Notes under the pieces: generated by a model
What the model saw: only the letters and a program-made list of their open reading frames with translations
Database searches by the model: none
Told to the model about the DNA's origin: nothing
From: Nitrospirota bacterium
GTDB taxonomy: Bacteria > Nitrospirota > Thermodesulfovibrionia > Thermodesulfovibrionales > UBA6898
NCBI GenBank assembly: GCA_021814065.1
Contig: JAKAIZ010000002.1
Span: 909 to 64,908 of the forward strand
Length of the DNA: 64,000 bases
Direction: 5' to 3'
Part shown: in pieces, positions 18,794 to 50,733 of the stretch
How the letters are laid out: every line of letters starts with the position of its first letter
Numbering within the stretch: the stretch's first letter is position 1
Position numbers and translations under genes: made by a program

Positions 18794-20557
18794 TCAGTCG
18801 GCACCCTTGTGAATTTCAGGGACCGTGAAAATCTCTTTTTTGTCAGGATAGTACGCTACAAACAGATCTTCCAAGTGATGCAGTGCGGTGCCGTCGAATG
18901 GTCTCATCTTCTTATAAATGTGCACTCTGACATCATTATCGAGGAGAAACTCATAGTTCAGTGCGTCAAAAGATGAGCCAATGCCCCCCTTCAGATGCAT
19001 TTGTTCAGCGAGAATGCCGATGACCCTCTGGTCTTCTGGCCTGAGATGATACTGTTCAGGTTCCGCGACTACCACATAGCCTGCGGAGAGAAGATTTTTA
19101 GGAAAGCCGTCTTTTTTATCCACATGGCTGGAGGCAAAGATCTTGTTGCAGAAGGATTGTGGATAATCAAAAGCACGGCAGGCGTTTCTTAAGATGTCGT
19201 CGTTGATAATGGTCGAGCTTGCGACGACATAAATTCCTTCCGTGTCGTTTCTTACTAACTCCCCTAAGACATCCAGCAACTTCCGGATTTCTCCCAGATC
19301 GTTCCTTACTAGCGGATAATGTCTATACCCCGTAATAAAAGGCGTTATCTTTGGGTATTTGTCGGCAACTCCGGGAATAAATACAGTGAAGATCTGTATG
19401 GTGAGAATAGCGACATATGCCGACGAAAGGGAAAGCCTTAGCGGCAGATTTTTCACCCACTTAAGGAGACCTGAGGCGAATAAGGATATCACAAGAATCA
19501 TTGATGGCATGAGTTGATAAAGATGCTGAGCGCCAAAATTCTGGACTCTCGAGAAAAGGACGACAACACAGATGGAATGCACAATTAAAAAGATGGAAAA
19601 ATGTCTCGTCTTTTCCGCGTAAACGCTGTAAAGCAAGCCGGCAACGAATATGACAGTTGTGAATGGGCCGAAATACCAGTAAAACCTGCCGAATATCTGG
19701 CTGAGGGTATTGTCAGATTTATAAGCGGAATAAATGTCCGCATAATCCGTTGAAAGCATCTTTGTCGCCTGAGGCCCCGCAATCAGAAAGAAAACGGCCG
19801 TGGCTGCGCAGCCGATGACAATTATGTTCCTTGCGGCGGAGAAGTACTTTTTGAAGTTCAGGCGGGATCGACTGAAAAGCGCCACTGACCTTTCGGCCGC
19901 AAGGGCGACAAAAAAGGAGACGACCCAGTATGCATACCATCGCCTGAGCAGCACGAGAAAGGCAAGCATTAGTCCCAGGGATATAAGCGTCTTCGCAGAC
20001 ATATCCTCGACGGGTGTGCGGCAGAGGACCAAAAGAATGCAGAAGATGACGACGACTCCCGCGGCATCAGGATATCCCAAAAAAACGGGGTTCCAGAATT
20101 GAACGAAAAGGAGAAACGTCGAAAGTGTGACCAACTCGGCAAGAAAGGATTCCCTCTGATCACTCTGGGAAGTAAGGTTTCTTACAAGTGCTGTGCAAAG
20201 AATTGCCGAGGGGAGTACATATACATTTGCGATCGCCAAAATGTATGGCAGCCTGCCCGCCCCGAAAAGCAGCCGAAAGGGCATTAGAAAAAGTACTGGC
20301 AGGAGATTGTAGTCATCCTGCCGGATGGTGCGCCAGATTTCAGAAAAAGCATTCACCGGCGAGTACATCAGGAGATCGCCAAGATTTTGATATTTTACCC
20401 AATAATTGTAGTAATCCCAGAAGTAGATATACCGCTCCTGGCTGATGAAATAATAGACGAATGAATTGACGAAGGCGAAAGCGACGACAAAAAGAAGCAT
20501 CTGGCTGAGGTTGACTTTTGTCCCCTTAATAAGATATTTTCCCATACGATTCCTCAA
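18794..20557 (-). CDS. Polytopic membrane protein with a C-terminal soluble domain (GT-C-like; function unassigned)
   Basis: 587-aa ORF with about 11 hydrophobic helices in the first 400 residues, followed by a soluble tail. It is divergent from a polyprenol-P glycosyltransferase gene. No catalytic motif recognised. Confidence 0.6.
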   Translation of the reverse strand: MRNRMGKYLIKGTKVNLSQMLLFVVAFAFVNSFVYYFISQERYIYFWDYYNYWVKYQNLGDLLMYSPVNAFSEIWRTIRQDDYNLLPVLFLMPFRLLFGAGRLPYILAIANVYVLPSAILCTALVRNLTSQSDQRESFLAELVTLSTFLLFVQFWNPVFLGYPDAAGVVVIFCILLVLCRTPVEDMSAKTLISLGLMLAFLVLLRRWYAYWVVSFFVALAAERSVALFSRSRLNFKKYFSAARNIIVIGCAATAVFFLIAGPQATKMLSTDYADIYSAYKSDNTLSQIFGRFYWYFGPFTTVIFVAGLLYSVYAEKTRHFSIFLIVHSICVVVLFSRVQNFGAQHLYQLMPSMILVISLFASGLLKWVKNLPLRLSLSSAYVAILTIQIFTVFIPGVADKYPKITPFITGYRHYPLVRNDLGEIRKLLDVLGELVRNDTEGIYVVASSTIINDDILRNACRAFDYPQSFCNKIFASSHVDKKDGFPKNLLSAGYVVVAEPEQYHLRPEDQRVIGILAEQMHLKGGIGSSFDALNYEFLLDNDVRVHIYKKMRPFDGTALHHLEDLFVAYYPDKKEIFTVPEIHKGAD

Positions 20558-21582: not shown

Positions 21583-21644
21583 GCCGCGACAAGAACCCCG
21601 GTAGTCGTCCGGTCCTCTGGCCCACCGGGATGGCAGTGCCGTCA

Positions 21645-21673
21645 TTGAATTTTTTCCTGTAAATTGTTAAAGT
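21645..21673 (+). promoter_or_regulatory. Candidate sigma70-type promoter for the amidase/MamK-like/SPOR genes
   Basis: TTGAAT (21645-21650), a 17-nt spacer, then TAAAGT (21668-21673). If it is used, the amidase start is more likely ATG 21686 than GTG 21674. Confidence 0.25.
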
Positions 21674-22732
21674 GTGCATACTATTATGATTTCCGCCTTT
21701 TCCAGGAAAAAAGAGCTGAAGGTTCGCCAGGAGATCCTGAAAGGGATCTACGAAGAGAATCTTCGTATAATCGGCAAGAAAAAGGGCGTCCTTTTGAGAC
21801 AGCGGACGTTCTCTCCGAACAGGGTCTTGCTGATATTATGTATTGCGGCGATAGTTGTCCTGGCGGGGGGTAATTATCTGGATGCCCCCTTGCTTGCCGA
21901 AAAGCAGACAGCGGGGGAAATAGTGATGCGTCCGCTCCCATCGTCCGCTGAATTGCCTAACGCCTCGGATTTTAAGGCCTTTATCACCAATGCGGACGTG
22001 TCAGTGAGCCGCACCTTCGGTTTGGGAGTCAAAACGATCATGATCGATGCGGGCCACGGCGGTGTGGATTCGGGGACAAGGGGGAAGATGGGAACCGCAG
22101 AGAAGGATATCGCCCTCGACATTGCAAAACGTCTCAAGGCCCGTCTCGACAAGTACGGACGTTTTCATGTTGTCATGACACGGAGCGAAGACGTCACGCT
22201 GCCCCTCAATAAGCGGGTCGAACTTGCCCGGGAGGCAAAGGCCGACCTCTTTGTCTCGATACATCTCAATTATCTTCCTTCCAAGCCGATCAATATCATC
22301 GAGACGTATTATTTCGGTCCATCCGCTGACAGCAAGACGCAGGAGCTCGCCGAACAGGAAAACGCCGGCTCCCAATACGGCCTCGGTGAATTCAAGGAGG
22401 TCATCGAGAAGCTCGGCCAGAGACTCAAACTCCAGGAATCGAGGGAACTTGCCTATTCCATACAGAAGAACCTCTTTGTAAATATAGCAAAGGAAAACGG
22501 AAATGCCTACAACTTCGGGGTAAAGCGGGCGCCTTTTGTTGTGCTCCTCGGCGCCGAAGTGCCGGCCGTTCTTGCAGAGGTGTCATGCCTCAGCAACAGG
22601 CAGGAAGAGAAGCAGCTTAATACCGAGGCGCACAGGGAAAATATCGCGCATGACCTCGAAGCGGGGATACTGGACTATATAAATAAAGGAGAAGCAGGCT
22701 ATGGCGCAGACAGATACGCGGAAAAAAGATGA
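21674..22732 (+). CDS. N-acetylmuramoyl-L-alanine amidase (Amidase_3 / AmiC type) with an N-terminal membrane anchor
   Basis: IMIDAGHGGVDSGTRG...EKDIALDIAKRL...VVMTRSEDVTLPLNKRVELAREAKADLFVSIHLN...APFVVLLGAEVPAVLAEVSCLSN. One hydrophobic helix (VLLILCIAAIVVLAGG). Confidence 0.9.
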   Translation: MHTIMISAFSRKKELKVRQEILKGIYEENLRIIGKKKGVLLRQRTFSPNRVLLILCIAAIVVLAGGNYLDAPLLAEKQTAGEIVMRPLPSSAELPNASDFKAFITNADVSVSRTFGLGVKTIMIDAGHGGVDSGTRGKMGTAEKDIALDIAKRLKARLDKYGRFHVVMTRSEDVTLPLNKRVELAREAKADLFVSIHLNYLPSKPINIIETYYFGPSADSKTQELAEQENAGSQYGLGEFKEVIEKLGQRLKLQESRELAYSIQKNLFVNIAKENGNAYNFGVKRAPFVVLLGAEVPAVLAEVSCLSNRQEEKQLNTEAHRENIAHDLEAGILDYINKGEAGYGADRYAEKR

Positions 22733-23729
22733 GGTATTGTTTGTCGGGATCGACCTCGGGACGTCGAGGAGTTCGATTTCGGCGGGCAACGGCAAGCGGG
22801 AGTGGATAGAAAGTTTCGTCGGCTGGCCGAAGGATTTTATTGCAATGCAGGTGGTCGGCAAGCCGGTGCTGTTCGGCTCCGAGGCTTTGCAGAACAGGCT
22901 TTCCCTTGATATCTGCCGGCCCCTTGAGCACGGCGTGATCAAGGAAGGCATCAACAGGAACGACGAGGCGGTGAAGGAGATCATCAGGCACCTTATTGAA
23001 CTCGCCGGTCCTGCATCGGGACAGAAGATACACGCGGTCGTCGGCGTACCGGCCGACACCCTGAAGGTGAACAAACTGGCGATACGAAAGGCGGTGACGG
23101 AGTTTGTCCATTCGCTGATGGTTGTGACGGAGCCTTTTGCGGTGGCGTACGGCATGAACCTCCTGAATAATTCGATGGTGATCGACATCGGCGCGGGCAC
23201 GGCGGACTTCTGTATTATGCACGGGTCTATCCCATCGGAGGAGGACCAGAAGACCGTCCTGACGGCGGGCGATTACATAGACGAGCAGCTCTTCAGCTAC
23301 CTCAGCGAGAAATACCCGAATTCCAAGTTCAACAAAAATATGGTCCGGCAGTTCAAGGAGCAGTACAGCTTTGTCCGGGACACGCCGGAAGAGATACGGG
23401 TCGAAATCCCTGTGGACGGCAAGCCGGTGATGCACGACATCAAAAACGAGATAAAGCGTGCCTGCGAGAGCATCCTGCCGGCGCTCACAGAGACGACGGC
23501 CGAGATGATCGCGCGATTCGATCCGGAATTCCAGGTCAAGATAAAGAACAACATCGTCCTGGCGGGAGGAGGGAGCCTCATCAGGGGACTTCGCGATCAT
23601 CTTCAGGATGCGCTTAAGGAATACGGTCCCTGCAAGGTGTCGTGCGTCGAAGACCCTCTGTTTGCGGGCTCCGACGGCGCGCTCAAACTCGCTCAGGACA
23701 TGCCTTCGAAATACTGGGAACCTCTTTGA
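22701..23729 (+). CDS. MamK-family actin-like ATPase
   Basis: AAGGAGAAG RBS. Actin-fold motifs GIDLGTS, VVGVPA, VIDIGAGTADF, VLAGGGSLIRGL. Collinear with remembered MamK blocks: FVGWPKDF, LDICRPLEHGV, VVTEPFAVAYG, QFKEQYSFV, C-terminal KLAQDMPSKYW. Confidence 0.85.
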   Translation: MAQTDTRKKDEVLFVGIDLGTSRSSISAGNGKREWIESFVGWPKDFIAMQVVGKPVLFGSEALQNRLSLDICRPLEHGVIKEGINRNDEAVKEIIRHLIELAGPASGQKIHAVVGVPADTLKVNKLAIRKAVTEFVHSLMVVTEPFAVAYGMNLLNNSMVIDIGAGTADFCIMHGSIPSEEDQKTVLTAGDYIDEQLFSYLSEKYPNSKFNKNMVRQFKEQYSFVRDTPEEIRVEIPVDGKPVMHDIKNEIKRACESILPALTETTAEMIARFDPEFQVKIKNNIVLAGGGSLIRGLRDHLQDALKEYGPCKVSCVEDPLFAGSDGALKLAQDMPSKYWEPL

Positions 23730-23765
23730 GATTCTCTCAATACATATGAAGACGGGAGATTTACC

Positions 23766-24950
23766 ATGGCAAGCAAGACGGTCCTCGTAATCGACGCCGA
23801 TAGCGAAACAGAACAATTCATCGCTTCTACTCTTGAAGCCGAAGGGTATCTTGTGTTTGCAGTTCCCGGAGGTGACGTTGGCGCCGAGATGGCCCAGAAG
23901 GTCAGGCCTTCCCTGATTTTCGTGAATCCCGAAGATACAAGCGACAAGGGCATGGAGGTCTGCAGGACGATACGCAGTTATGAGTCACTTAAGAACGTGC
24001 CGATTATTTTGCTTTCCTCGGGTCCCCGGGGAACTGATCTCGGTCTATTAGGAGTTGTAGACGCCCTGTCAATGCCGGTCAGCTCAGCGGAGCTCCTGGA
24101 AAAGACCGAAAAGGCCATGAACGTCAAGTCTCCCGTCGTGCTTCGTGTCAGGGAGAAAGCCGCTGAGTTCCGGGAAGACAAAATGCCGGCTGCCGAATCG
24201 CCATCCCCTGGATTGCGGGAAGGGGTCTCTTCGAAGTCTCGTCTGTCGGACTTGTCGGAAATAGAGGACATGGAAGCAGAGGGAGAAGCAGTTAAGGGCA
24301 CTCAAAAAGACCGGGAGGTGCCTGCCGAATCCTACTTCCCGGAAGAAGAGACCGCTGGGGGAAAAAAGGGCAAGAAAGTTTTGTTGGCGCTACTTGCGGT
24401 ATTGGTGATCGTCGTCGGTGTGGCGGGAGCTCTTTATTATACCGGGCTGATACCGGGGGCCGGCCTTCAGACGAAGGTCCCGGCGGCGCCGCCAAGAACG
24501 GTCGAGAAGCCGAAAAAGCCCGAACCACTGCCCGCCGCTGAGACTGAAAAGCAGCCGGTTGCGGAGGAAAAGACAGCGTCTGCTCCGGCTGCCGCACAGA
24601 CGCCGGTTGCCGCTACTGCGCCTCACGCGGCGGAAGTTCAAACGCCATCGCCCAAGACTTCTCCTGCGCAACCGCCTGCTACCAAGGCGGCTCCGGCCTC
24701 AAAACCATCAGGCAAGACCGTCTACTCGGTCCAGGTCGGGGTCTTCAAAAATGAGAAAAATGCCTCGACGCTCTCAAAGAAACTTAAAGAAAAAGGGTAT
24801 GATGCATTTATCCTGAAGAGCAGCAGTAGAGAGAAGGGTACCGTATATAGGGTGCTGGTCGGCAAGTTCGAAGACAACAAGAAATCCCGGGAAATGGCAG
24901 TCCAGATCAGCAAGAAGGAGAACATCAAGGCGGTCATTTTTTCAGAATAA
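23766..24950 (+). CDS. Bitopic protein: pseudo-receiver domain - TM helix - Pro/Ala-rich linker - SPOR domain
   Basis: REC-like VLVIDADSE...PIILLSS, but the acceptor position is N (LIFVNPED) and the conserved Lys position is M (LSMPV). TM helix VLLALLAVLVIVVGVAGALYY. C-terminal SPOR pattern YSVQVGVFKNEKNA...GYDAFI...YRVLVGKFEDNKKSRE. Confidence 0.85.
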   Translation: MASKTVLVIDADSETEQFIASTLEAEGYLVFAVPGGDVGAEMAQKVRPSLIFVNPEDTSDKGMEVCRTIRSYESLKNVPIILLSSGPRGTDLGLLGVVDALSMPVSSAELLEKTEKAMNVKSPVVLRVREKAAEFREDKMPAAESPSPGLREGVSSKSRLSDLSEIEDMEAEGEAVKGTQKDREVPAESYFPEEETAGGKKGKKVLLALLAVLVIVVGVAGALYYTGLIPGAGLQTKVPAAPPRTVEKPKKPEPLPAAETEKQPVAEEKTASAPAAAQTPVAATAPHAAEVQTPSPKTSPAQPPATKAAPASKPSGKTVYSVQVGVFKNEKNASTLSKKLKEKGYDAFILKSSSREKGTVYRVLVGKFEDNKKSREMAVQISKKENIKAVIFSE

Positions 24951-24987: not shown

Positions 24988-25048
24988 GTCATTGCGGCTT
25001 GTCCGCAATCCTTCTTAAAGAAAGATTCCCGACAAGCGGGAATGACGG
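24988..25048. repeat. MITE/REP-like palindromic element
   Basis: GTCATTGCGGCTTGTCCGCAATCC...AAAGATTCCCGACAAGCGGGAATGACGG. Termini CCGTCATT/AATGACGG. It sits between convergent operons. Confidence 0.6.
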
Positions 25049-33594: not shown

Positions 33595-33791
33595 CTGATT
33601 TTCTTCTGGCATAGTAAATAAAAAAAAATAAAAAAAGGGGGCGCTTATCAACTTCATCCTGCAAGAAGATACGCGATTGATACTCATGAGGCCCGCCGAT
33701 AGGCAACTTCAAAGCAATTGATATGAGGCATGAATAATCAAAGATGCTCAAGATACTGAACGATAAAAAAAATCACAGGAGGAGTGATAGC

Positions 33792-36700
33792 ATGAAGAGG
33801 CGCAATAATTTGGTCCTTGTGAGTGTGCTTTTGCTTGCAACGGCCTTTCCCTGGGGAATCAACACGGCTGATGCCGGCCCCGGGATCACCAATCCATGCC
33901 CGCCGGACCAGATTTGCCCCGAGGGGCCTGGTTTCGGTACCTACTACGCAAATAGCCCCGCGGGTATCCGGACTTATCAGGGTGTGTCATATTTTACCGG
34001 TGGCCCTCTCAGGAAGTTTGTCGACAGTCTGCCGGGCTTGGGATATGCGAACAGAAATAACCTGGGGCAATATATCCCGGTTGCTGTGCCGGATACATCG
34101 ACGTTTCCGGGGTCCGACTATTACGTGATCGGCCTGAAGGACTACAGAATAAAGATGCATTCCGACATGCCAGCTGCGACTGACACACTCGGAACCGGTA
34201 CAAGGATCAGGGGTTATTACCAGATCAACGGCACGGATCACAGTTCACAATATCTGGGGCCTTTGATCATAGCCAGGCGGGACAGGCCGGTGCGCCTCCT
34301 CTTTGAAAACCATCTCGGCGCCGGAACGGCAGGCGACCTCTTCATACCGGTTGACACCACGGTGATGGGTGCAGGGCAGGGTCCGCTTGGGCTTGGCTGC
34401 GGAGGAGTTTACCCCGGCTGCAACTACACCCAGAACCGGGCTGTTATCCATCTCCACGGCGGCAACACACCATGGATCAGCGATGGTATTCCCCGCCAAT
34501 GGATAACCCCGATCGGGGAATACTCGACGCCCTATCTTAAAGGGGAGACCCAGCGAAACGTCCCTGACATGTGGTTTGACTCGGGCCACAACGTTGTCCC
34601 GGCTGGAACCTCCGGTGCGACGAACGACCCTGGTCAGGGAAGGGCCACTTATTATTGGACTAACCAGCAGAGCGGCAGGTTTATGTTTTTTCATGACCAC
34701 TCTTACGGACTCACACGCCTTAACGTATATGCGGGCGAGGCGGCGGGCTATCTGATAACAGACCCCGAGGAAGATAAATTGATCGATGCCGGTACTATCC
34801 CCAATGTATGTCCTTCCGGCAGTCCTGATTGCGTATACCGTTACGGGATACCCCTTGTCATCGAGGACAAGACTTTCGTTCCCTGGGACGTCTCTGTCCA
34901 GGATGCAAAATGGGATGTCAATAAATGGGGTAAGCCGGGAGACCTCTGGTTCCCTCATGTCTACGAGCCGAATCAGAAGCCCAATGACCCGACCGGCGCC
35001 AACCCCTTCGGAAGATGGGACTATGGCCCATGGTTCTGGCCTCCTGTGCTGCTTGACGCCGCACACTCAACGCTTCCCGACCCTTCGATAGTGCCGGAAG
35101 CTTTTATGGACACTCCGATAGTCAACGGCACTGCATATCCTTATCTGAACGTGGAGCCGAAGGCCTACAGGTTCCGTATCCTCAATGCCACAAACGACAG
35201 GATGCTCAACCTGCAATTCTATGTTGCAGAACCTCTCCATATCAGTGTTACAAACGGGGGCTCCAATTATTCCGCAACGCCGATTGTTGAAATAGGCAGC
35301 AGCGGCTGCACCCCCGAGCCACTGGCAACTGCAACGGTGGATGGCGGTGTGATTACGGGAATTACAGTTACCAACTCTGACTCAATTGCATGCACCTCGA
35401 TTCCAAATGTCAGCATAACGGACTCAACCGGGACAGGCGCTGCCGTGGCTGCTTCAATCAATACGGAAGTCAGGATGGTGGCGGCGCTGCCGCCGACTGC
35501 AGGAAATCTTCCGGCCTGTACCACGGCAACAGTGACTAATGACTCGGGGCTTGCGCTCGGGGGCCTCACGCTGGGCCCAACGGGCCTTCCGGCAAATTGC
35601 TGGCCGACGACATGGCCGGTAGACGGAAGGGACGGGGGCGTGCCTGATCCGACCACAGCCGGGCCTGCGATGGTCCAGATCGGCACTGAAGGAGGTTTTC
35701 TGCCGAAGCCGGTTGTGATACCCTCGACTCCGGTCGGCTATGAATACAACCGCAGAAATATAGTGGTCCTGAATGTCCTGAACAAGGCGATTTTTCTCGG
35801 CTCGGCCGAAAGGGCCGACATCGTCGTAGACTTCTCTCAGTTTGCAGGGAAAACACTAATAATGTATAACGACGCGCCGGCGCCTGTCCCTGGTTTCGAT
35901 CCTCGCAACGACTACTACACTGACGACCCTGATCAGTCCTCGACAGGGGGCGCACCCACGACCCTGCCCGGTTACGGCCCTAACACTCGTACGATCATGC
36001 AATTCCGGGTGGCGGACTCTGCTACCCCCCCTACCTTTGACCTCGCGGCGCTGCAGAATGAGGCAACCGGTCTCCCTGCAGCGTTTGCAGCGTCTCAACC
36101 GCCTATGCACGTGCCCGAACCGGTTTATCCTGCTCCCAACAATGCCGTCGCCGATACGCTTGCAACTATCCAGGCATACTCTTTAACCTTCAATCCGAAC
36201 ACACTGACCAGCGGCATCGAGGCGATCAGGAATATAACGGTAATAAACGGGGGCGCGGGATATACTGTTGCCACCGTAACTGTGGATCCGCCACCTCCCG
36301 GTGGCACGCAGGCGACGGCTTCTGCGGCCGTATCGGGCGGTGCTGTCACGGCTATAAACATCATAAACCCCGGATCAGGGTATTATTATGCTCCCGGAGT
36401 TACGATTTCAGGCGACGGCACGGGCGCTGCTGCCGTTGCCAATTTTGGGGCGACTCCCCAGGCGATCAGGTCCGTCACGGTTACGAACGGAGGCTCGGGC
36501 TGCGTTGCCTCTCCGACTGTCAATTTCTTGGGTGGCGGCGGCACGGGCGCTACTGCTTCTGCAACGGCACCGGCCGGAGAAATTACCGGGATCACGGTTA
36601 CGAATGGAGGTTCCGGGTATACTTCTTTACCCGCAGTGGCAATCACAGGCTGCACTTTTGCCGCTACTGCCGTTGCGAACTTTGAGCCGGTAACGGTCCC

Positions 36701-38246
36701 TATGCAGCCAAAGGCGATCCAGGAGCTCTGGGACTCCTATGGCAGGATGAACGCCACACTCGGCGTCGAGCTCCCATTTACCAATAACAACATCCAGACA
36801 ACCATCCCGCTCGGATACATTGATCCGACTACTGAGATAGTGCCCGAGGGGCAGACGCAGCTATGGAAGATCACCCATAACGGTGTCGACACCCATCCTG
36901 TCCACGTACACCTTTACAACATGCAGATCATCAACAGGGTCGGCTGGGACGGGGCGATAAGGCCGCCGGAGGACAATGAACTCGGATGGAAGGAGACTGT
37001 CAGGATGAACCCGCTGGAGGACATTATCGTCGCGCTTCAGCCGAGGACCATGACCCTTCCCTTCACGGTACCGGATAGCGTCCACAGTGAGGACACTACT
37101 ACTCCGGCGAGCTCTAATATAACCGTCGTAAGCCCATTCGGGATACCGGGGGGAGGCGTGGTCGGCAACCCGATTATTGTTTCAAACGCCGATCAATTCT
37201 TCGGGTGGGAATATGTCTGGCACTGCCATATCCTTGGCCATGAAGAAAACGACTTTATGCGTCCGTTTGTCATGCTTGTCCCTAACGATTTCCCTGCTGC
37301 GCCGACCAGCCCGTTTGCTACAGTGCCGACTCCGGCGTTGCCCGCGACAACAGGGAACACCGTCCAATTGAGCTGGACGGATAATGATGCCCTCGATCCC
37401 CAAACGAATCTGCCGGAGGCTGTCCGGAATTCCGAGATCGGTTTTCGCATCGAGCGTGACAGCGGCAGCGGATTCGTACCGATAACGAACGTATTTACGC
37501 CGATAACATATGTTTATCCGGACACGATTTACTTTACCGATACACAGGTCGCTTCGGGCGCGACTTACAACTACCGGATCTGGGCTTATAACGAGAAAGG
37601 CGACTCGCTGCGTTCGGTGACAGCGTCGGTAACGATGCCGACATGGACGAAGGCCGATAGCGTGACCCTCATCCCCACGCCGGCGAGTCCGGTGGTAGCC
37701 GGAAACCCGGTCTTGTTTTCTGCCTATGGTTCGGGCTCCTCAGTTTCCTACCAGTACCGGTTCTGGCAAAACGGTGTCATGGTCCAGGACTACGGTATCG
37801 GCTCTACGTGGACGATGCCGGCTTCGACGCTTCCGGGGACCTATACAATAATCGTCGATGTGCGGACCAGCCTGTCGTCTCCGGCTCCGGATGCGTCTGC
37901 GTCCACAAACTATGTAGTTTCGAATCCTTTTGTCACGCCGGCGTCAGGATCAGTGCAGATTGTCACGCCTCCGACGACAATTACGCCTCATTCTGTCGTT
38001 ACCCCTTATTCTACCCTTGCAGCAGCATTTGCCGCAGCCCAGGCTAACGACACGATCGAGGCATGGGGCGTGCCGTTCTCCGAAAGTATTAACTTAACCA
38101 CCCCCGGGCCGGCCACAGTGACATTTGCCGGAGGTTATGACCAAACCTTCGGCAGCCCCCTTTCCATGACTACCCTGCAGGGCGGATCCCTGACTGTAGG
38201 CGGAGTCGGCGGGACCCTGGTCGTGGACCGGCTGACTATACAATAA
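33792..38246 (+). CDS. Giant secreted multicopper oxidase with inserted GGxGY repeats, FN3-like and Y_Y_Y-like domains and a shared C-terminal module
   Basis: ATG 33792 follows AGGAGGAG and gives the signal peptide MKRRNNLVLVSVLLLATAFPWGINTADA; the track ORF starts at 33744. Copper motifs appear in order: IHLHGG, FFHDHSYG, HPVHVHL, WHCHILGHEENDFM. Confidence 0.9.
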   Translation: MKRRNNLVLVSVLLLATAFPWGINTADAGPGITNPCPPDQICPEGPGFGTYYANSPAGIRTYQGVSYFTGGPLRKFVDSLPGLGYANRNNLGQYIPVAVPDTSTFPGSDYYVIGLKDYRIKMHSDMPAATDTLGTGTRIRGYYQINGTDHSSQYLGPLIIARRDRPVRLLFENHLGAGTAGDLFIPVDTTVMGAGQGPLGLGCGGVYPGCNYTQNRAVIHLHGGNTPWISDGIPRQWITPIGEYSTPYLKGETQRNVPDMWFDSGHNVVPAGTSGATNDPGQGRATYYWTNQQSGRFMFFHDHSYGLTRLNVYAGEAAGYLITDPEEDKLIDAGTIPNVCPSGSPDCVYRYGIPLVIEDKTFVPWDVSVQDAKWDVNKWGKPGDLWFPHVYEPNQKPNDPTGANPFGRWDYGPWFWPPVLLDAAHSTLPDPSIVPEAFMDTPIVNGTAYPYLNVEPKAYRFRILNATNDRMLNLQFYVAEPLHISVTNGGSNYSATPIVEIGSSGCTPEPLATATVDGGVITGITVTNSDSIACTSIPNVSITDSTGTGAAVAASINTEVRMVAALPPTAGNLPACTTATVTNDSGLALGGLTLGPTGLPANCWPTTWPVDGRDGGVPDPTTAGPAMVQIGTEGGFLPKPVVIPSTPVGYEYNRRNIVVLNVLNKAIFLGSAERADIVVDFSQFAGKTLIMYNDAPAPVPGFDPRNDYYTDDPDQSSTGGAPTTLPGYGPNTRTIMQFRVADSATPPTFDLAALQNEATGLPAAFAASQPPMHVPEPVYPAPNNAVADTLATIQAYSLTFNPNTLTSGIEAIRNITVINGGAGYTVATVTVDPPPPGGTQATASAAVSGGAVTAINIINPGSGYYYAPGVTISGDGTGAAAVANFGATPQAIRSVTVTNGGSGCVASPTVNFLGGGGTGATASATAPAGEITGITVTNGGSGYTSLPAVAITGCTFAATAVANFEPVTVPMQPKAIQELWDSYGRMNATLGVELPFTNNNIQTTIPLGYIDPTTEIVPEGQTQLWKITHNGVDTHPVHVHLYNMQIINRVGWDGAIRPPEDNELGWKETVRMNPLEDIIVALQPRTMTLPFTVPDSVHSEDTTTPASSNITVVSPFGIPGGGVVGNPIIVSNADQFFGWEYVWHCHILGHEENDFMRPFVMLVPNDFPAAPTSPFATVPTPALPATTGNTVQLSWTDNDALDPQTNLPEAVRNSEIGFRIERDSGSGFVPITNVFTPITYVYPDTIYFTDTQVASGATYNYRIWAYNEKGDSLRSVTASVTMPTWTKADSVTLIPTPASPVVAGNPVLFSAYGSGSSVSYQYRFWQNGVMVQDYGIGSTWTMPASTLPGTYTIIVDVRTSLSSPAPDASASTNYVVSNPFVTPASGSVQIVTPPTTITPHSVVTPYSTLAAAFAAAQANDTIEAWGVPFSESINLTTPGPATVTFAGGYDQTFGSPLSMTTLQGGSLTVGGVGGTLVVDRLTIQ

Positions 38247-47400: not shown

Positions 47401-50400
47401 CTATTGACCATCTTCTTTTCGTTTAAAGAGGCGAATCTCGCTTACCGCAAAGTCGCTACATGCCGGGGGATTTACTATTCTGACACTTATTTCATTTACC
47501 CTGCCGCCCTTCACCCACCTCGGGCTGCTGTCGAGAGGAACGACCATCACCCCCTGCTCGGCGTAAAAACGAATATCCCTCTTGTCATCGTATGACGGAA
47601 AATCTTCGTTAGTCCACTGAAGAGCCAACTCCGGATATAGTGCTCCCGCGCGCTTGCACTTGAGATCCAAAACCGCGTATTGGGCGTCAGCGCCCAGAAT
47701 TCCCGGCGGGGCAGGCTTGAACACAACGCGCGAGTCGGTGAAGGGGACTGGTGCTTTCGCTAAGGGTCGTGATACGCCATTCTTGCCAGGGATGCGAACT
47801 AATCTTCCGGTCTCCCGGACATGTCGCTCCAGACTCTTCCACGACCTGCCCCAAGCCATGGGAAGCTTCTGGAGGTGCTCGACGCGAAATGCTGAGTCCA
47901 GCAGAGCCAGCCTCATATCACGCACTGCAGACTGTGTCCCCGGCAGCTGAACCGGATGCATGCGCCGGGCGCTTACTACGTGCCGGTGCTCGCCGGCCGG
48001 ATCGAGAGGAGGACCATCCAGCGACAGCACGTTACCTGAGATGCTCGTGATGGTTCTTTCATGGGCATGATGGAATATGATCTTATCCCCAGGACAGAGT
48101 GTCAGAAGGTCTACAGAATATTTCAGGAGGATGGCGGGCCTCTTTCCGCGGTTGGAAATCCCGTTCGACCAGTCTTCGTTGGTCACTGGGCTGAGTGTCA
48201 GGACATCTTCCGGCAGAAGCACCGACAGCTTCGCTCCGCGTTTCGGCTCTATAAGAAGTATGTAACGACCCCGCTTAACCGGTACGTAGGATTTTACTAT
48301 ATAGCGGTAGAGAAGATTTGCACGAAGTTGCACCGTAGGTCCATCCCACGAGATAGTATCTCCATCTATAATAATCACCGGGGGCGGCTGCGATACCAGC
48401 TGCTGAATCATTCTCTCTTGCGTAGCGACCGACGGCGCGTTGTAAACGGCGGCTTCCACAACCGGAACCGGATATCCTAGGAAAAAGTAGCGGGCAGAGT
48501 GATTCGTCAGGTCCAGATAAGTTTCCCCCGGCAAGAGTATTTCGTGCAGGATTTGCCGCAACTCGTGGAGGCCTTCGGCGCGATCGTCGTCAAGGATGAG
48601 GTACCCGAGATGAGGGAGGGCGGGGTCGAGCGCCACCCGTCTGTTCTGGACCTTGATGATATCGACAGATCTCGATACGAGGGTTGTTGTATCGGGCAGG
48701 TCTCCGCCCATTGCAGCATAGCAAACCGCTCCAAGGGCTGCCCATAGAAGCATGGGAGCAGAAAGTATTCTTTGCCGCGGGAGCAGGAAGAGAAGAGGAA
48801 TGGCAAAAGAAAGCAGCCACAGTGAAACAACACCTGTTCTGGTGATGCCGAGATCAATTCGGCCGAAGCTATAAGCCATCATCAGCAGAAGGAAAAAAAC
48901 AATGAAGATCCCGAAAATCAGTGTCTGCCTGCGACGTGCATTATGCGGAGCTGCCGCCTCCCTCCAGACAACGATGGCGGTCGCCGCGACACCTAGTATC
49001 CAGCCGGATCTTAAGAGTTCAGACAAGAAGCCCGACGCGAATAGACCCGTAGTGTGAAAGGGGGCCCCAAATGTGTCTGCCCAAGGGGAGCCATTTGCGA
49101 TTGTATTGACTGAAGCATTCTCGGCAAGAAATCGCAGCAGGCCTGCGAGCACTTTCCCGAGCGGCGTGACCAGCAAGAGCAGAGTGAGAATTCCGGTAGT
49201 AAGCAGCATTCCGTTTCTGATCCGCTTCGGGTCCTCTTTCCAGGCGCGGACAATCATCCAAAGCCCAAAGGGGAGAGAGGCCAACGCGAATGCGGTGCCC
49301 GTCGACATGGCATATAACGTTAAGAAAGTTGCCGACAATCCCCAGACGACAACCCAGCGCGCAGGCCTGTCCAGTAAATATGCATTAATCAGTAGCATGA
49401 TGGCGGGAGCGGTGAACCAATGATTCTGAGTGAATTTTTCCAGCGGGAAGGTGACCATTACAAAAAATGCCCAGAATGGTCCGACAATCGCACTGATCGA
49501 TAAAAAAGTGAGCGCACAAGCGAACATCAGCAGCATCCTGTCAGAGGCAAAAAAAGAGGCAGCGGTGGTGTCAAAGAAAATCCGGCCGAGGACGCCTTGC
49601 AGAAGATGCACGAAGCCGTGCGGATAGTTGATGCCCACAAAAGGGAGTTTGCCGAAATCAGTGAGTTGCTGCCATGGAAGGTACCACTCCCCCATATGGT
49701 AATCATCAAGATGCAATATGGGCAATCCCAGCTGTTGGGCATGCAGGAAGACGACAAGGGCGACTACGGCCCCCGGGACTACAGCTGAAGCCAGGGTTTG
49801 CTCACCGGCTGCCTCACGGCTTTTAAACGAAAGCCACCGGCGATACCACGAGTACAGGCTGATGCTGATGACTATTCCTACCGCCGCATAGAGTGCTGCT
49901 GTGGGCTGATATCCCCGATAAAGGAGCCCGTCTTGGCGCCATGGATGCGGCAACGCATCGAAGAACAGGAAGGGCAGAGGCAATTGAATAAGAATGACCA
50001 TGTTCAGTAGGAGCACACGAAAATCCTCGGCAGTCTTGCTGCGCCACCATGCCACTACCGCGACGGCAGCCGCCCCGGCCAGAAAAACAGCAGCAAACTT
50101 TGCCGCCGTGTCCGGACCGAGGCCGGCCAACGGTAACCCAAGCCAGAAATGCATCGTTACAAGACTTTTCCACACTAAGACCGATGTGGACAGCCCCGCG
50201 GCAGTCGCACCTACCAGAATACAGAAAAGTGCGCCTCCAATATCCTCGATTTGCCTGCTCTCGATATGGCTTGCGTACTTGCAGAGCATCAGACAGATCA
50301 GACAGGAAATAACATTGAGACATACTGAAATCAGCAGAAAGGAGTATGACGGCCGAGAGGCGACTAAGTCGGTGACAAGCCACCATACTACCGGGAAGAG

Positions 50401-50733
50401 AGAGATTAGGAAAATGGAGCTGAGAGATTCCCTTATCTCAGGAGACTTGCGACGGAGGTGAAAATACTGAAATAGTGCGTTCAAGGAAAGACACGAGACG
50501 GAAAAAAATACAAGAAAGGCCAGTATAGCGTAATAGTCAGCGCTCTTATTTGCAGCTGTCCACGTTACGGGGCCGACAACGAAGTCCGCAAATGTTTGAT
50601 GAAGAGCAGGCTTCCATCTTGAAAAAAGAAGAGCAAGGCCACAGATGGCAGAAAGGAAGGCCGCACTCAGTATTGGAGCCAATCCTAAGCCGGGAAGAAG
50701 ATAAGGAATAATCCCGTCCCTATCGAGTTTCAT
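47401..50733 (-). CDS. 1110-aa polytopic membrane protein with a ~400-aa C-terminal soluble domain (GT-C-like candidate; unassigned)
   Basis: Long uninterrupted ORF. Roughly 20 hydrophobic helices by eye in residues 1-700. Last gene of a minus-strand operon with the GT2 and mutase-like genes. Confidence 0.7.
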   Translation of the reverse strand: MKLDRDGIIPYLLPGLGLAPILSAAFLSAICGLALLFSRWKPALHQTFADFVVGPVTWTAANKSADYYAILAFLVFFSVSCLSLNALFQYFHLRRKSPEIRESLSSIFLISLFPVVWWLVTDLVASRPSYSFLLISVCLNVISCLICLMLCKYASHIESRQIEDIGGALFCILVGATAAGLSTSVLVWKSLVTMHFWLGLPLAGLGPDTAAKFAAVFLAGAAAVAVVAWWRSKTAEDFRVLLLNMVILIQLPLPFLFFDALPHPWRQDGLLYRGYQPTAALYAAVGIVISISLYSWYRRWLSFKSREAAGEQTLASAVVPGAVVALVVFLHAQQLGLPILHLDDYHMGEWYLPWQQLTDFGKLPFVGINYPHGFVHLLQGVLGRIFFDTTAASFFASDRMLLMFACALTFLSISAIVGPFWAFFVMVTFPLEKFTQNHWFTAPAIMLLINAYLLDRPARWVVVWGLSATFLTLYAMSTGTAFALASLPFGLWMIVRAWKEDPKRIRNGMLLTTGILTLLLLVTPLGKVLAGLLRFLAENASVNTIANGSPWADTFGAPFHTTGLFASGFLSELLRSGWILGVAATAIVVWREAAAPHNARRRQTLIFGIFIVFFLLLMMAYSFGRIDLGITRTGVVSLWLLSFAIPLLFLLPRQRILSAPMLLWAALGAVCYAAMGGDLPDTTTLVSRSVDIIKVQNRRVALDPALPHLGYLILDDDRAEGLHELRQILHEILLPGETYLDLTNHSARYFFLGYPVPVVEAAVYNAPSVATQERMIQQLVSQPPPVIIIDGDTISWDGPTVQLRANLLYRYIVKSYVPVKRGRYILLIEPKRGAKLSVLLPEDVLTLSPVTNEDWSNGISNRGKRPAILLKYSVDLLTLCPGDKIIFHHAHERTITSISGNVLSLDGPPLDPAGEHRHVVSARRMHPVQLPGTQSAVRDMRLALLDSAFRVEHLQKLPMAWGRSWKSLERHVRETGRLVRIPGKNGVSRPLAKAPVPFTDSRVVFKPAPPGILGADAQYAVLDLKCKRAGALYPELALQWTNEDFPSYDDKRDIRFYAEQGVMVVPLDSSPRWVKGGRVNEISVRIVNPPACSDFAVSEIRLFKRKEDGQ

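What the first reader, a model, noticed from the sequence alone, without database searches (positions are those of the whole stretch)
21645..24950. Orphan MamK-family actin gene wedged between a peptidoglycan amidase and a pseudo-receiver/SPOR protein
Seen: three co-directional genes with a 32-nt overlap (22701-22732) and then a 36-nt gap, so probably one transcript. The middle product carries the actin-fold ATPase motifs (GIDLGTS, VVGVPA, VIDIGAGTADF, VLAGGGSLIRGL). It follows MamK, as I remember that sequence, block by block over its whole length: LFVGIDLGTS; FVGWPKDF; LDICRPLEHGV; VVTEPFAVAYG; QFKEQYSFV; DGALKLAQDMPSKYW at the C-terminus. MreB, FtsA and ParM do not share these blocks. No other magnetosome gene (mamA/B/E/I/M/P/Q, mad, man) is visible in the 64 kb. 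Established: Amidase_3 enzymes create denuded glycan strands at division sites and SPOR domains bind exactly that product; MamK forms dynamic filaments that position organelles. Inference: this may be a MamK-type filament coupled to amidase-processed peptidoglycan through the bitopic REC-like/SPOR protein. That would be a cytoskeleton-to-septum (or pole) module distinct from the MreB and FtsA systems. I know of no description of such a module.
Basis: partly seen in the sequence, partly recalled or inferred. Interest (0 to 1): 0.85.

Follow-up and report, generated by a model that had tools for sequence, protein, structure and literature searches.

The report
Actin-like filament gene paired with amidase
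A MamK-type bacterial actin that has nothing to do with magnetosomes is locked, across at least three phyla, into a small operon with a membrane-anchored cell-wall amidase and often an FtsN-like wall-binding protein, which points to an undescribed cytoskeleton-guided cell-wall cutting module.

Summary
Three co-directional genes (amidase 21686-22732, MamK-family actin 22701-23729, pseudo-receiver/SPOR 23766-24950) form a self-contained unit with a 32-nt overlap and a 36-nt gap, and the 64 kb contains no magnetosome genes. The actin passes NCBIfam's MamK cutoff, and its closest solved structures are MamK. It belongs to a separate clade (100% bootstrap) outside the groups anchored by real magnetosome clusters. 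An AmiC-type amidase overlaps the actin gene in 54 of 54 related loci (Nitrospirota, Thermodesulfobacteriota, Acidobacteriota) and in sister lineages only 51-64% identical. Every one of these amidases has lost its export signal and AMIN domain. In their place is a transmembrane anchor and a nearly invariant cytoplasmic peptide (ILRGVYEENL) found nowhere else. The REC-like/SPOR gene follows in 35 of 53 loci, and its family was seen only in this context. No held paper describes this. All evidence is genomic and no interaction was tested. PGAP already names the protein "MamK family actin-like protein". Rating: new variant of a known kind, moderately high interest.

The parts
21629..21652 (+). Terminator-like hairpin plus T-run after the upstream GT2 gene. 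It marks the 5' boundary of the three-gene unit.
   Evidence: (stem 21629-21643, tail ATTGAATTTT) and the sequence. This is a consensus match only.
21686..22732 (+). Membrane-anchored AmiA/B/C-type N-acetylmuramoyl-L-alanine amidase, 348 aa from ATG 21686 (alternative GTG start at 21674).
   Evidence: Pfam Amidase_3 1e-43. Residues 121-339 align with E. coli AmiC 4BIN, Bartonella AmiB 3NE8 and AmiA 8C2O, including the regulatory insertion. Gene callers use ATG 21686.
21704..21781 (+). Conserved cytoplasmic tail motif of the amidase (aa 7-32, RKKELKVRQEILKGIYEENLRIIGKK; core I-L-[RK]-G-V-Y-E-[ED]-N-L). It is the proposed adaptor peptide for the filament.
   Evidence: Present in 54 of 54 full-length orthologs. 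Mean identity is 0.61 against 0.21-0.32 for its flanks. It occurs once per locus and nowhere else in the window in any frame. Degenerate versions occur in the deep sisters L068 and L071.
21824..21880 (+). Single transmembrane anchor of the amidase (aa 47-65), oriented N-in/C-out.
   Evidence: Kyte-Doolittle 19-residue mean of 2.49. Flank charge is +5 on the N side and -2 on the C side.
22022..22690 (+). Periplasmic Amidase_3 catalytic domain, including the AmiC-like regulatory insertion (aa 217-262).
   Evidence: identity 0.73-0.74 in the catalytic parts and 0.67 in the insertion.
22701..22732 (+). 32-nt overlap of the amidase 3' end with the actin-like 5' end. An AAGGAG ribosome-binding site lies at 22686-22691.
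   Evidence: A 14-74 nt overlap is kept in the related loci.
22701..23729 (+). MamK-family actin-like ATPase (342 aa), soluble, with all nucleotide-binding motifs.
   Evidence: NCBIfam NF040964 410.6 bits against 400. PDB MamK E 3.5e-89. AF2 model plus Foldseek: top matches MamK 5LJW/5LJV, TM 0.79-0.82. No hydrophobic segment. 81% mean identity across 55 orthologs.
23766..24950 (+). Bitopic pseudo-receiver/SPOR protein (394 aa) with an FtsN-like layout.
23766..24125 (+). Cytoplasmic receiver-fold domain (aa 1-120) without a phospho-acceptor Asp (Asn54).
   Evidence: AF2 pLDDT 85-94 with alternating beta-alpha topology. The acceptor column reads N16/K9/R5/S2/D1 in 33 orthologs.
24375..24440 (+). 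Transmembrane helix of the REC/SPOR protein (aa 204-225).
   Evidence: KD 3.10 and an AF2 helix at 204-225.
24717..24944 (+). Periplasmic C-terminal SPOR domain (aa 318-393), preceded by a disordered Ala/Pro-rich linker.
   Evidence: Pfam SPOR 8.4e-15. AF2 pLDDT about 95 with a beta-alpha-beta-beta-alpha-beta fold.
25025..25043 (.). Hairpin between the trio and the convergent GT4 gene. It is the likely 3' boundary of the unit.

Best explanation
This is an autonomous two- to three-gene cell-envelope module. A MamK-family actin-like ATPase forms cytoplasmic filaments. These filaments hold, position or gate a membrane-anchored, AmiC-type peptidoglycan amidase through the amidase's short conserved cytoplasmic tail, so that wall cleavage in the periplasm is directed from inside the cell. 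In about two-thirds of lineages a third protein joins. It has a cytoplasmic pseudo-receiver head, one TM helix, a long disordered linker and a periplasmic SPOR domain. The SPOR domain binds the peptide-free glycan strands that the amidase produces, which would retain or reinforce the assembly at the site of cutting, much as FtsN does. The most likely role is daughter-cell separation or another localised wall-remodelling event. Shown here: domain identities, topology, conservation pattern, gene linkage and independence from magnetosome genes. Inferred: filament formation, tail-to-filament binding, the site of action and the physiological role.
For: Gene linkage. An amidase lies directly upstream of and overlaps the actin gene in 54 of 54 informative loci from more than 55 species-level genomes of Nitrospirota/Thermodesulfovibrionales, Thermodesulfobacteriota and Acidobacteriota. 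The same holds in sister lineages whose actin is only 64% and 51% identical. All-against-all clustering of ORFs in 57 loci finds only these three conserved families, and the neighbours vary.

Amidase tail. The amidase has an AmiC-like catalytic domain with the regulatory insertion. It has no AMIN domain or cleavable signal; instead it has a TM anchor with positive-inside charge. Ahead of the anchor is a cytoplasmic motif present in 54 of 54 orthologs, at 0.61 identity against 0.21-0.32 for its flanks, and unique to this protein. The actin is the only cytoplasmic protein that always co-occurs with it.

Actin. It is extremely constrained (81% mean identity, higher than the amidase catalytic domain), as expected of a polymer with many contacts. 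It keeps the ATPase motifs.

REC/SPOR. The cytoplasmic head (0.49) is as conserved as the SPOR domain (0.49), while the linkers are at 0.15-0.20. The phospho-acceptor is lost in 32 of 33 orthologs. The two most divergent family members tested are again directly downstream of an amidase/actin pair.

Independence from magnetosomes. The 64 kb has no Mam genes. Ca. Sulfobium MAGs carry the locus (L009, L011, L029), and the near-complete Ca. Sulfobium Nbg-4 genome was reported to lack magnetosome genes (PMC5812927).

Established knowledge. Amidases make denuded glycans and SPOR domains bind them. FtsA-FtsN and MreB-RodZ are precedents for actin-like proteins linked to periplasmic wall enzymes through bitopic proteins.
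Against: No interaction, polymerisation, localisation or enzyme activity has been tested. All carriers seen are uncultured MAGs. The tail is amphipathic and could bind the membrane or another partner, such as the general divisome. The REC/SPOR gene is missing next to the pair in 18 of 53 loci, so the feedback element is not essential or lies elsewhere in those genomes. The amidase keeps an AmiC-like regulatory insertion, which normally calls for a LytM-type activator, and none is linked. I could not examine whole genomes, so I do not know whether these organisms also have FtsA, FtsN, MreB or other amidases. I also cannot exclude a magnetosome cluster elsewhere in this particular MAG.
Confidence: 0.5

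Rival explanations
1. The actin-like filament positions some other cargo, such as an inclusion, a polar complex or DNA. The amidase and SPOR genes are only co-transcribed with it because all act at the same cell-cycle stage, and there is no physical link between filament and amidase.
For: MamK-family and ParM-type actins are classic cargo positioners. Other branches of the family sit next to unrelated genes: a coiled-coil protein, bactofilin/ParAB, and Roadblock/small-GTPase genes. No interaction has been shown.
Against: This does not explain why a periplasmic enzyme has exchanged its export signal for a TM anchor plus a nearly invariant cytoplasmic peptide in exactly the lineages where it overlaps the actin gene. 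No candidate cargo gene is conserved in the neighbourhood.
Confidence: 0.2
2. The amidase tail and the pseudo-receiver head dock onto the ordinary divisome (FtsA/FtsZ) or onto each other. The MamK-like protein is then a regulator or chaperone-like ATPase and not a scaffold.
For: FtsN's cytoplasmic tail binds FtsA (established knowledge). The receiver head is as conserved as the SPOR domain. The actin fold also occurs in non-polymerising ATPases.
Against: The tail is universal, whereas the REC/SPOR gene is absent from a third of the loci, so REC cannot be its only partner. The actin-like protein is closest in sequence and predicted structure to filament-forming MamK and BeeR. Its 81% mean identity across orthologs suggests polymer-type constraint.
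Confidence: 0.15
3. The gene is a stray or auxiliary magnetosome MamK. It works with a magnetosome gene cluster elsewhere in the genome, and its neighbours are irrelevant.
For: It passes the NCBIfam MamK cutoff. The phylum Nitrospirota contains magnetotactic genera. AMB-1 has a second mamK-like gene outside its magnetosome island (PMC2818848). The whole genome could not be inspected.
Against: The 64 kb has no Mam genes. The clade is found in more than 55 species-level genomes of three phyla and is always fused in an operon with the amidase. Ca. Sulfobium MAGs carry the locus, and the near-complete Ca. Sulfobium Nbg-4 genome was reported without magnetosome genes. The clade is monophyletic at 100% and is not nested in the branches anchored by real clusters: AMB-1 MamK and MamK-like, CAX83788, and L077.
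Confidence: 0.03
4. It is a mobile lysis, defence or prophage-derived cassette, with an endolysin-like amidase and an actin-like partition protein.
For: Neighbours vary and inter-phylum identity is high (73-80%), which suggests lateral transfer. The amidase hits phage endolysin PHROGs, and the actin weakly hits a phage partition family. One locus has a holin-family gene downstream.
Against: The PHROG and PADLOC hits are generic fold-level matches. No integrase, phage structural gene or defence partner appears in the window or the loci. The amidase carries the cellular AmiC-type regulatory insertion. The module is single-copy and under strong purifying constraint across many free-living lineages.
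Confidence: 0.04

Closest known systems
MamK (magnetosome actin of magnetotactic bacteria; NCBIfam NF040964; PDB 5JYG/5LJV)
   Same: Same protein family and fold. Full-length alignment at 41% identity (E 3.5e-89), which lies inside the 35-95% range reported among experimentally studied MamK orthologs (PMC10653835). All ATPase motifs are present. MamK is the top Foldseek match.
   Different: It is not in or near a magnetosome gene cluster. It forms its own clade (100% bootstrap) with an amidase partner. It is found in lineages not known to be magnetotactic. Its presumed cargo is a cell-wall enzyme and not an organelle.
BeeR (MamK-related actin of non-magnetotactic Verrucomicrobiota; PDB 8R2N; PMC11929497)
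   Same: It is a precedent for a MamK relative with a non-magnetosome role in non-MTB. It is the second-best structural match (31% identity).
   Different: The window protein scores 227 bits against the BeeR cutoff of 530. It lacks BeeR's disordered N-terminal domain. BeeR's function and partners are unknown, and no amidase link has been reported.
FtsA-FtsN (E. coli divisome)
   Same: An actin-like cytoplasmic protein is paired with a bitopic protein whose cytoplasmic part contacts it. That protein has a long disordered periplasmic linker and a C-terminal SPOR domain that binds amidase-processed glycan. This gives a self-reinforcing loop with amidases.
   Different: The actin here is MamK-type, not FtsA. 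The cytoplasmic part is a 120-aa pseudo-receiver domain, not a short basic tail. The TIGR02223 FtsN score is 46.6 against a cutoff of 107.65. The amidase itself is membrane-tethered with a cytoplasmic tail, which FtsA-FtsN systems do not have.
MreB-RodZ-elongasome
   Same: An actin-like filament under the membrane is coupled through a bitopic adaptor to periplasmic wall enzymes.
   Different: MreB directs synthesis, whereas this module contains a hydrolase. There is no RodZ-type HTH adaptor. The MreB NCBIfam score is 92.6 against a cutoff of 293.
AmiA/AmiB/AmiC with EnvC/NlpD; membrane-anchored LytH-ActH (S. aureus)
   Same: Same Amidase_3 catalytic domain with an AmiC-like regulatory insertion. 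LytH is a precedent for a TM-anchored Amidase_3 whose activity depends on a membrane partner (from my own knowledge).
   Different: There is no Tat/Sec signal, no AMIN domain and no linked LytM activator. The conserved cytoplasmic N-terminal peptide and the obligate overlap with an actin gene are unique to this module.

Membership tests
MamK family (NCBIfam NF040964; magnetosome actin) | Sequence scores above the curated family cutoff over the full length | tested here: met
   410.6 bits against a cutoff of 400, E 4e-123, residues 13-341 on profile 1-329/335. It only just clears the cutoff.
MamK family (NCBIfam NF040964; magnetosome actin) | Closest solved structures and fold are MamK, not MreB, ParM or FtsA | tested here: met
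   phmmer against PDB: MamK 5JYG/5LJV about E 1e-89, BeeR 1e-44, MreB 1e-17. Foldseek on the AF2 model: MamK 5LJW/5LJV E 1e-30, TM 0.79-0.82. The model confidence is moderate (pLDDT 69).
MamK family (NCBIfam NF040964; magnetosome actin) | Actin-fold ATPase motifs, including the catalytic Glu (E143 in AMB-1) | tested here: met
   GIDLGTS, VVTEPF (E144) and DIGAGTAD are invariant, and LAGGGS is invariant apart from its first two residues, in the 26-sequence alignment.
MamK family (NCBIfam NF040964; magnetosome actin) | Encoded within or beside a magnetosome gene cluster (mamA/B/E/I/M/P/Q and others) | tested here: not met
   The 64 kb has no Mam families and neither do 57 related loci. By contrast, representative P0162 sits among MamF, MamI, MamE-magnetochrome and a Magnetosome_regulatory protein.
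MamK family (NCBIfam NF040964; magnetosome actin) | Branches inside the clade of magnetosome-cluster MamKs | tested here: inconclusive
   The window clade plus P0121 is monophyletic at 100/100 and is not nested in the AMB-1 group (72-80/100). The deep nodes are a star, with the MGC super-clade at 24/100. The tree is NJ only and has no MreB outgroup.
MamK family (NCBIfam NF040964; magnetosome actin) | Forms two-stranded, non-staggered filaments that align magnetosomes | not testable with these tools
   This needs biochemistry, cryo-EM or genetics.
BeeR family (NF053558) | Scores above the curated cutoff and has a disordered N-terminal domain | tested here: not met
   227.1 bits against a cutoff of 530. 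Only 11 residues precede the first beta-strand.
MreB (NF010539 / TIGR00904) | Scores above the curated cutoff | tested here: not met
   92.6 against 293 and 76.1 against 365.75.
AmiA/B/C-type division amidase | Amidase_3 catalytic domain with Zn ligands and the regulatory (autoinhibitory) insertion | tested here: met
   Pfam 1e-43. Residues 121-339 align continuously with AmiC 4BIN 175-396, AmiB 3NE8 and AmiA 8C2O, including the insertion. Autoinhibition itself was not tested.
AmiA/B/C-type division amidase | Exported by a cleavable Tat/Sec signal; AMIN targeting domain in AmiB/AmiC; curated equivalog score | tested here: not met
   The N-terminus is a 46-aa charged cytoplasmic tail followed by a TM anchor. 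No AMIN hit. NCBIfam AmiC 115.6 against 700, AmiA 115.8 against 400, AmiB 79 against 532.
FtsN (TIGR02223) | Bitopic N-in topology with a disordered periplasmic linker and a C-terminal SPOR domain | tested here: met
   TM 204-225, disordered 230-315, SPOR 318-393.
FtsN (TIGR02223) | Curated equivalog score; short basic cytoplasmic tail; essential periplasmic helix | tested here: not met
   46.6 bits against a cutoff of 107.65. The cytoplasmic part is a 120-aa receiver fold plus an 80-aa acidic linker.
Response-regulator receiver domain (PF00072) | Alternating beta-alpha receiver fold | tested here: met
   AF2 residues 1-120 have pLDDT 85-94, with five strands and four clear helices. Helix alpha-4 is degenerate.
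Response-regulator receiver domain (PF00072) | Phospho-acceptor Asp at the end of beta-3, and a Pfam gathering score | tested here: not met
   The window has Asn54. Orthologs read N16/K9/R5/S2/D1, and L079 has Glu. Pfam score is 29.8 against 30.2.

The most novel reading that the evidence does not exclude
This would be a fourth kind of bacterial actin-based envelope system, alongside MreB, FtsA and magnetosome MamK. MamK-family filaments would directly capture a septal-type peptidoglycan amidase through a dedicated cytoplasmic tail peptide, so that wall hydrolysis is placed and timed from the cytoplasm. A pseudo-receiver/SPOR protein would close an FtsN-like positive feedback loop. Because the pair is widespread in the anaerobic Nitrospirota and Desulfobacterota, the phyla that also hold deep-branching magnetotactic bacteria, it might reflect what MamK-type actins did before one lineage was recruited to magnetosomes.
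Probability: 0.3. Interest if true: 0.8.

Novelty: new variant of a known kind. Interest (0 to 1): 0.62.

Why it matters
How bacteria confine dangerous wall-cutting enzymes to the right place is a central question in cell biology. In known solutions, amidases are activated from the periplasm or through FtsEX-EnvC. A filament that grips the amidase itself from the cytoplasmic side would be a new control logic. It would also give a first function to one of the many non-magnetotactic MamK homologs, which magnetotaxis surveys currently discard as noise. Finally, it supplies a concrete, testable peptide-filament pair (a tail of about 26 aa plus a 342-aa actin) that can be studied in E. coli or in vitro without culturing the source organisms.

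Tried and rejected
1. A homology search with the amidase tail plus TM alone (70 aa), meant to find other proteins carrying the peptide, returned nothing. Only one word-sharing candidate was found, so this is uninformative.

No docking evidence could be obtained.

3. The review 'Bacterial actins and their diversity' (PMC4318550) is not held.

4. The Ca. Sulfobium metaproteome supplements contained no entry for amidase, MreB or actin, so there is no expression evidence.

5. Source names for family representatives were mostly missing or read 'rod shape-determining protein'. The tree therefore had to be anchored by gene context.

6. The long (500-1,230 aa) MamK-domain proteins were checked as possible amidase-actin fusions. 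They carry coiled-coil and disordered N-termini or FtsZ, not an amidase.

7. A CwlD-type (spore cortex) reading of the amidase was rejected. The NCBIfam hit is split and below cutoff, and the domain carries the AmiC-type insertion.

8. PADLOC and PHROGs gave only generic hits.

9. The scan of the GTDB genome collection could be run only once, and whole MAGs cannot be fetched. I could not check the rest of this genome for a magnetosome cluster, FtsA, FtsN or other amidases.

Full report
**1. What is there**

The window carries three co-directional + strand genes exactly as described.
- An amidase at 21674/21686-22732.
- An actin-like gene at 22701-23729.
- A REC-like/SPOR gene at 23766-24950.

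The 32-nt overlap and the 36-nt gap are exact. Gene callers on identical public contigs start the amidase at ATG 21686, giving 348 aa. The finding's start of 21645 is intergenic; it lies just after a terminator-like hairpin that closes the upstream glycosyltransferase gene. Good ribosome-binding sites precede both internal start codons. The next gene downstream is convergent. The trio therefore looks like a self-contained transcription unit, though that is inferred and not shown.

The surrounding 64 kb encodes glycosyltransferases, an ABC-2 exporter, a sulfotransferase, GDP-mannose dehydratase, hisA/hisF and similar genes. It contains no magnetosome family, no tRNA and no Rfam element.

**2. 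The actin-like protein**

It passes NCBIfam's MamK subfamily model at 410.6 bits against a cutoff of 400. It fails BeeR (227 against 530) and MreB (93 against 293). Against the PDB, MamK is by far the best match (E about 1e-89, full length), followed by BeeR (1e-44) and MreB (1e-17). An AF2 model of moderate confidence (pLDDT 69) finds MamK 5LJW/5LJV first (TM 0.79-0.82, 41% identity), then BeeR, then MreB and actin.

The identical protein is already in GenBank, named by PGAP 'MamK family actin-like protein [Nitrospiraceae bacterium]'. The family call is therefore correct but not new.

**3. Where it sits in the family**

An exhaustive search of 1.84 billion cluster representatives gave 174 representatives at E<=1e-30. 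In an NJ tree of the 73 full-length ones plus AMB-1 MamK, the window protein and its close relatives form a tight clade (100/100). Its sister, also at 100/100, is a lineage 64% identical (P0121). Deeper nodes are unresolved.

Proteins that can be tied to real magnetosome systems lie elsewhere in the tree:
- AMB-1 MamK
- AMB-1 MamK-like, P0DSO6
- the fosmid protein CAX83788
- a Magnetococcales protein
- P0162, whose contig carries MamF, MamI, MamE-magnetochrome and a Magnetosome_regulatory gene

Other branches come from ANME-2 archaea, Planctomycetota, Nitrosomonadaceae, Verrucomicrobiota and Gemmatimonadota. Where I checked their contexts, they have neither Mam genes nor an amidase next door.

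The magnetotaxis literature already notes many non-MTB MamK homologs and filters them out: 2,798 metagenomic hits, of which only 227 sat beside other Mam genes (PMC7449369). BeeR is the one non-MTB relative that has been characterised (PMC11929497).

**4. The decisive result: synteny**

One scan of the GTDB species-representative genomes returned 61 true loci with 73-99% identical actins. They come from Nitrospirota/Thermodesulfovibrionales (including Ca. Sulfobium), Thermodesulfobacteriota (several labelled Syntrophaceae) and one Acidobacteriota MAG.

In all 54 loci with enough upstream sequence, an orthologous amidase lies directly upstream and overlaps the actin gene by 14-74 nt. The pair persists in the 64%-identical sister lineage (L068-L070). 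It also persists in an Acidobacteriota lineage only 51% identical (L071/L072), and neither of these has the third gene.

The REC-like/SPOR gene follows in 35 of 53 informative loci. In the others the downstream gene is unrelated and varies by lineage: a secreted Ysc84-domain protein, a holin-family protein, or a SPOR-TPR protein. Clustering all ORFs of 57 loci shows that nothing else is conserved, with no LytM factor and no FtsEX.

Conversely, the REC-like+SPOR architecture is a small family of 53 hits. Its two most divergent members that I checked are again directly downstream of an amidase/actin pair.

**5. The amidase is unusual in an informative way**

Its catalytic domain aligns end to end with AmiC, AmiB and AmiA, including the regulatory insertion. 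It has no AMIN domain and no cleavable signal. Instead it begins with a 46-residue, strongly basic cytoplasmic segment followed by one TM helix, with flank charge +5 inside and -2 outside.

Within that segment, the core I-L-[RK]-G-V-Y-E-[ED]-N-L-x-[IM]-[IL]-G-K is nearly invariant in 54 of 54 orthologs. Its mean identity is 0.61, against 0.21-0.32 for the adjacent linker, TM and periplasmic stalk, and 0.73 for the catalytic domain. The motif occurs once per locus and nowhere else in the window in any frame. Recognisable degenerate versions head the amidases of the deep sister lineages.

A periplasmic hydrolase has no evident need for a conserved cytoplasmic peptide unless something in the cytoplasm reads it. 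The only cytoplasmic protein that always accompanies it is the actin. That is the basis, by inference, for proposing tail-to-filament binding.

**6. The third protein**

AF2 gives five parts:
- a confident receiver fold at residues 1-120
- an acidic disordered linker
- a TM helix at 204-225
- an Ala/Pro-rich disordered linker
- a confident SPOR domain at 320-393

The phospho-acceptor position is Asn here. In 33 orthologs it reads N/K/R/S in 32 and Asp in one, and one distant member has Glu. Its head is as conserved as the SPOR domain (0.49 each), against 0.15-0.20 for the linkers, which implies a cytoplasmic partner. The layout is that of FtsN, but it fails the FtsN model (46.6 against 107.65).

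**7. Mechanism proposed**

- *Shown:* domain identities, topology, the conservation pattern, tight gene linkage across phyla, and independence from magnetosome genes.
- *Established elsewhere:* Amidase_3 enzymes strip peptides from glycan strands. SPOR domains bind those denuded strands. FtsA-FtsN and MreB-RodZ link actin-like proteins to periplasmic wall enzymes through bitopic proteins.
- *Inferred:* the MamK-like protein polymerises under the membrane. The amidase tail docks on it, so the filament decides where, and perhaps when, the tethered amidase cuts. Where present, the pseudo-receiver/SPOR protein bridges the filament to the amidase's product and stabilises the site.

I put this at about 0.5. 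The main rivals are these:
- co-expression without physical coupling (0.2)
- tail or REC docking onto the ordinary divisome, with the actin as a regulator (0.15)
- a stray magnetosome MamK (0.03)
- a mobile lysis or defence cassette (0.04; PADLOC and PHROGs gave only generic hits)

**8. Limits**

- All evidence is comparative genomics on MAGs.
- I could not inspect whole genomes. A magnetosome cluster elsewhere in this MAG is unlikely but not excluded, and I do not know whether carriers lack FtsA, FtsN or AmiC.
- The tree is NJ without outgroups.
- Docking could not be run.
- Inter-phylum actin identity of 73-80%, together with variable neighbours, suggests lateral spread of the module, extreme constraint, or both.

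**9. Novelty and score**

The component families are known, and the gene already carries a MamK-family label. What I could not find in the held literature is any link between a MamK-type actin and an amidase or a SPOR protein, or any membrane-anchored AmiC-type amidase with a conserved cytoplasmic tail. I rate it a new variant of a known kind, namely an actin-like cytoskeleton organising cell-wall enzymes. Interest is about 0.6. It would surprise a bacterial cell biologist, and the key claim is directly testable with two small proteins, but nothing functional has yet been shown.

Noticed in passing
L075:7001-16157 (Logan SRR14699966 contig; representative P0133): A sub-family of 500-1,230 aa proteins has an N-terminal coiled coil (motif KKDRFREWTKSLGE), a very long disordered region and a C-terminal MamK-family domain. 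One of them sits next to a second actin-like gene, four Roadblock/LC7 genes and an Arf/Ras-like small GTPase. This looks like a separate, uncharacterised cytoskeletal/GTPase module.
   Followed up: partly
L011:7280-7984, L012:1695-2468, L013:1849-2622 (Ca. Sulfobium-like MAGs): Where the REC/SPOR gene is missing in this lineage, the gene after the MamK-like actin encodes a secreted Ysc84-domain protein (PF04366, 'Las17-binding protein actin regulator', E 2.6e-37). The actin-related name is intriguing, but the signal peptide argues for a periplasmic location.
   Followed up: partly
L026:7047-7445: In one Nitrospirota MAG the gene after the amidase/actin pair is a four-TM Phage_holin_4_2 family protein (E 2e-32). 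Holin next to amidase is reminiscent of lysis cassettes, but this was seen in only one locus.
   Followed up: no
L045:7289-8248: In this locus a SPOR-TPR protein without a receiver domain follows the actin gene. A SPOR-bearing partner may therefore have been recruited more than once.
   Followed up: no
L079:5001-5972: In a distant trio next to Wood-Ljungdahl genes, the receiver acceptor position is Glu (LVLLE), a classic phosphomimetic substitution. Most other orthologs have N, K or R.
   Followed up: no
P0155 cluster: MamK-family actins about 38% identical to the window protein occur in ANME-2/Methanosarcinales archaeal MAGs, annotated as 'rod shape-determining protein'.
   Followed up: no
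P0161 (CAX83788): A 768-aa 'Magnetosome protein MamK' from an uncultured bacterium is an N-terminal FtsZ-like domain fused to a MamK domain.
   Followed up: no
window 18794-20557 (-), 33744-38246 (+), 47401-50733 (-): Three large ORFs in the polysaccharide region have essentially no Pfam assignment. One is 587 aa and visibly rich in hydrophobic stretches. One is 1,500 aa with only a Cu-oxidase_2 fragment hit. One is 1,110 aa.
   Followed up: no
L004, L053, L061 (MAG MFD01872.bin.1.109): The same MAG holds three contigs with the trio. In two of them the actin and REC/SPOR genes look frameshifted. These are probably strain variants or long-read errors and not true paralogs.
   Followed up: no
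L036-L052 compared with the window: Actin identity between phyla (73-80%) is far higher than for the amidase (46-56%) or REC/SPOR (30-43%), and the flanking genes differ in nearly every lineage. This fits lateral transfer of the module, very strong constraint on the filament protein, or both.
   Followed up: partly
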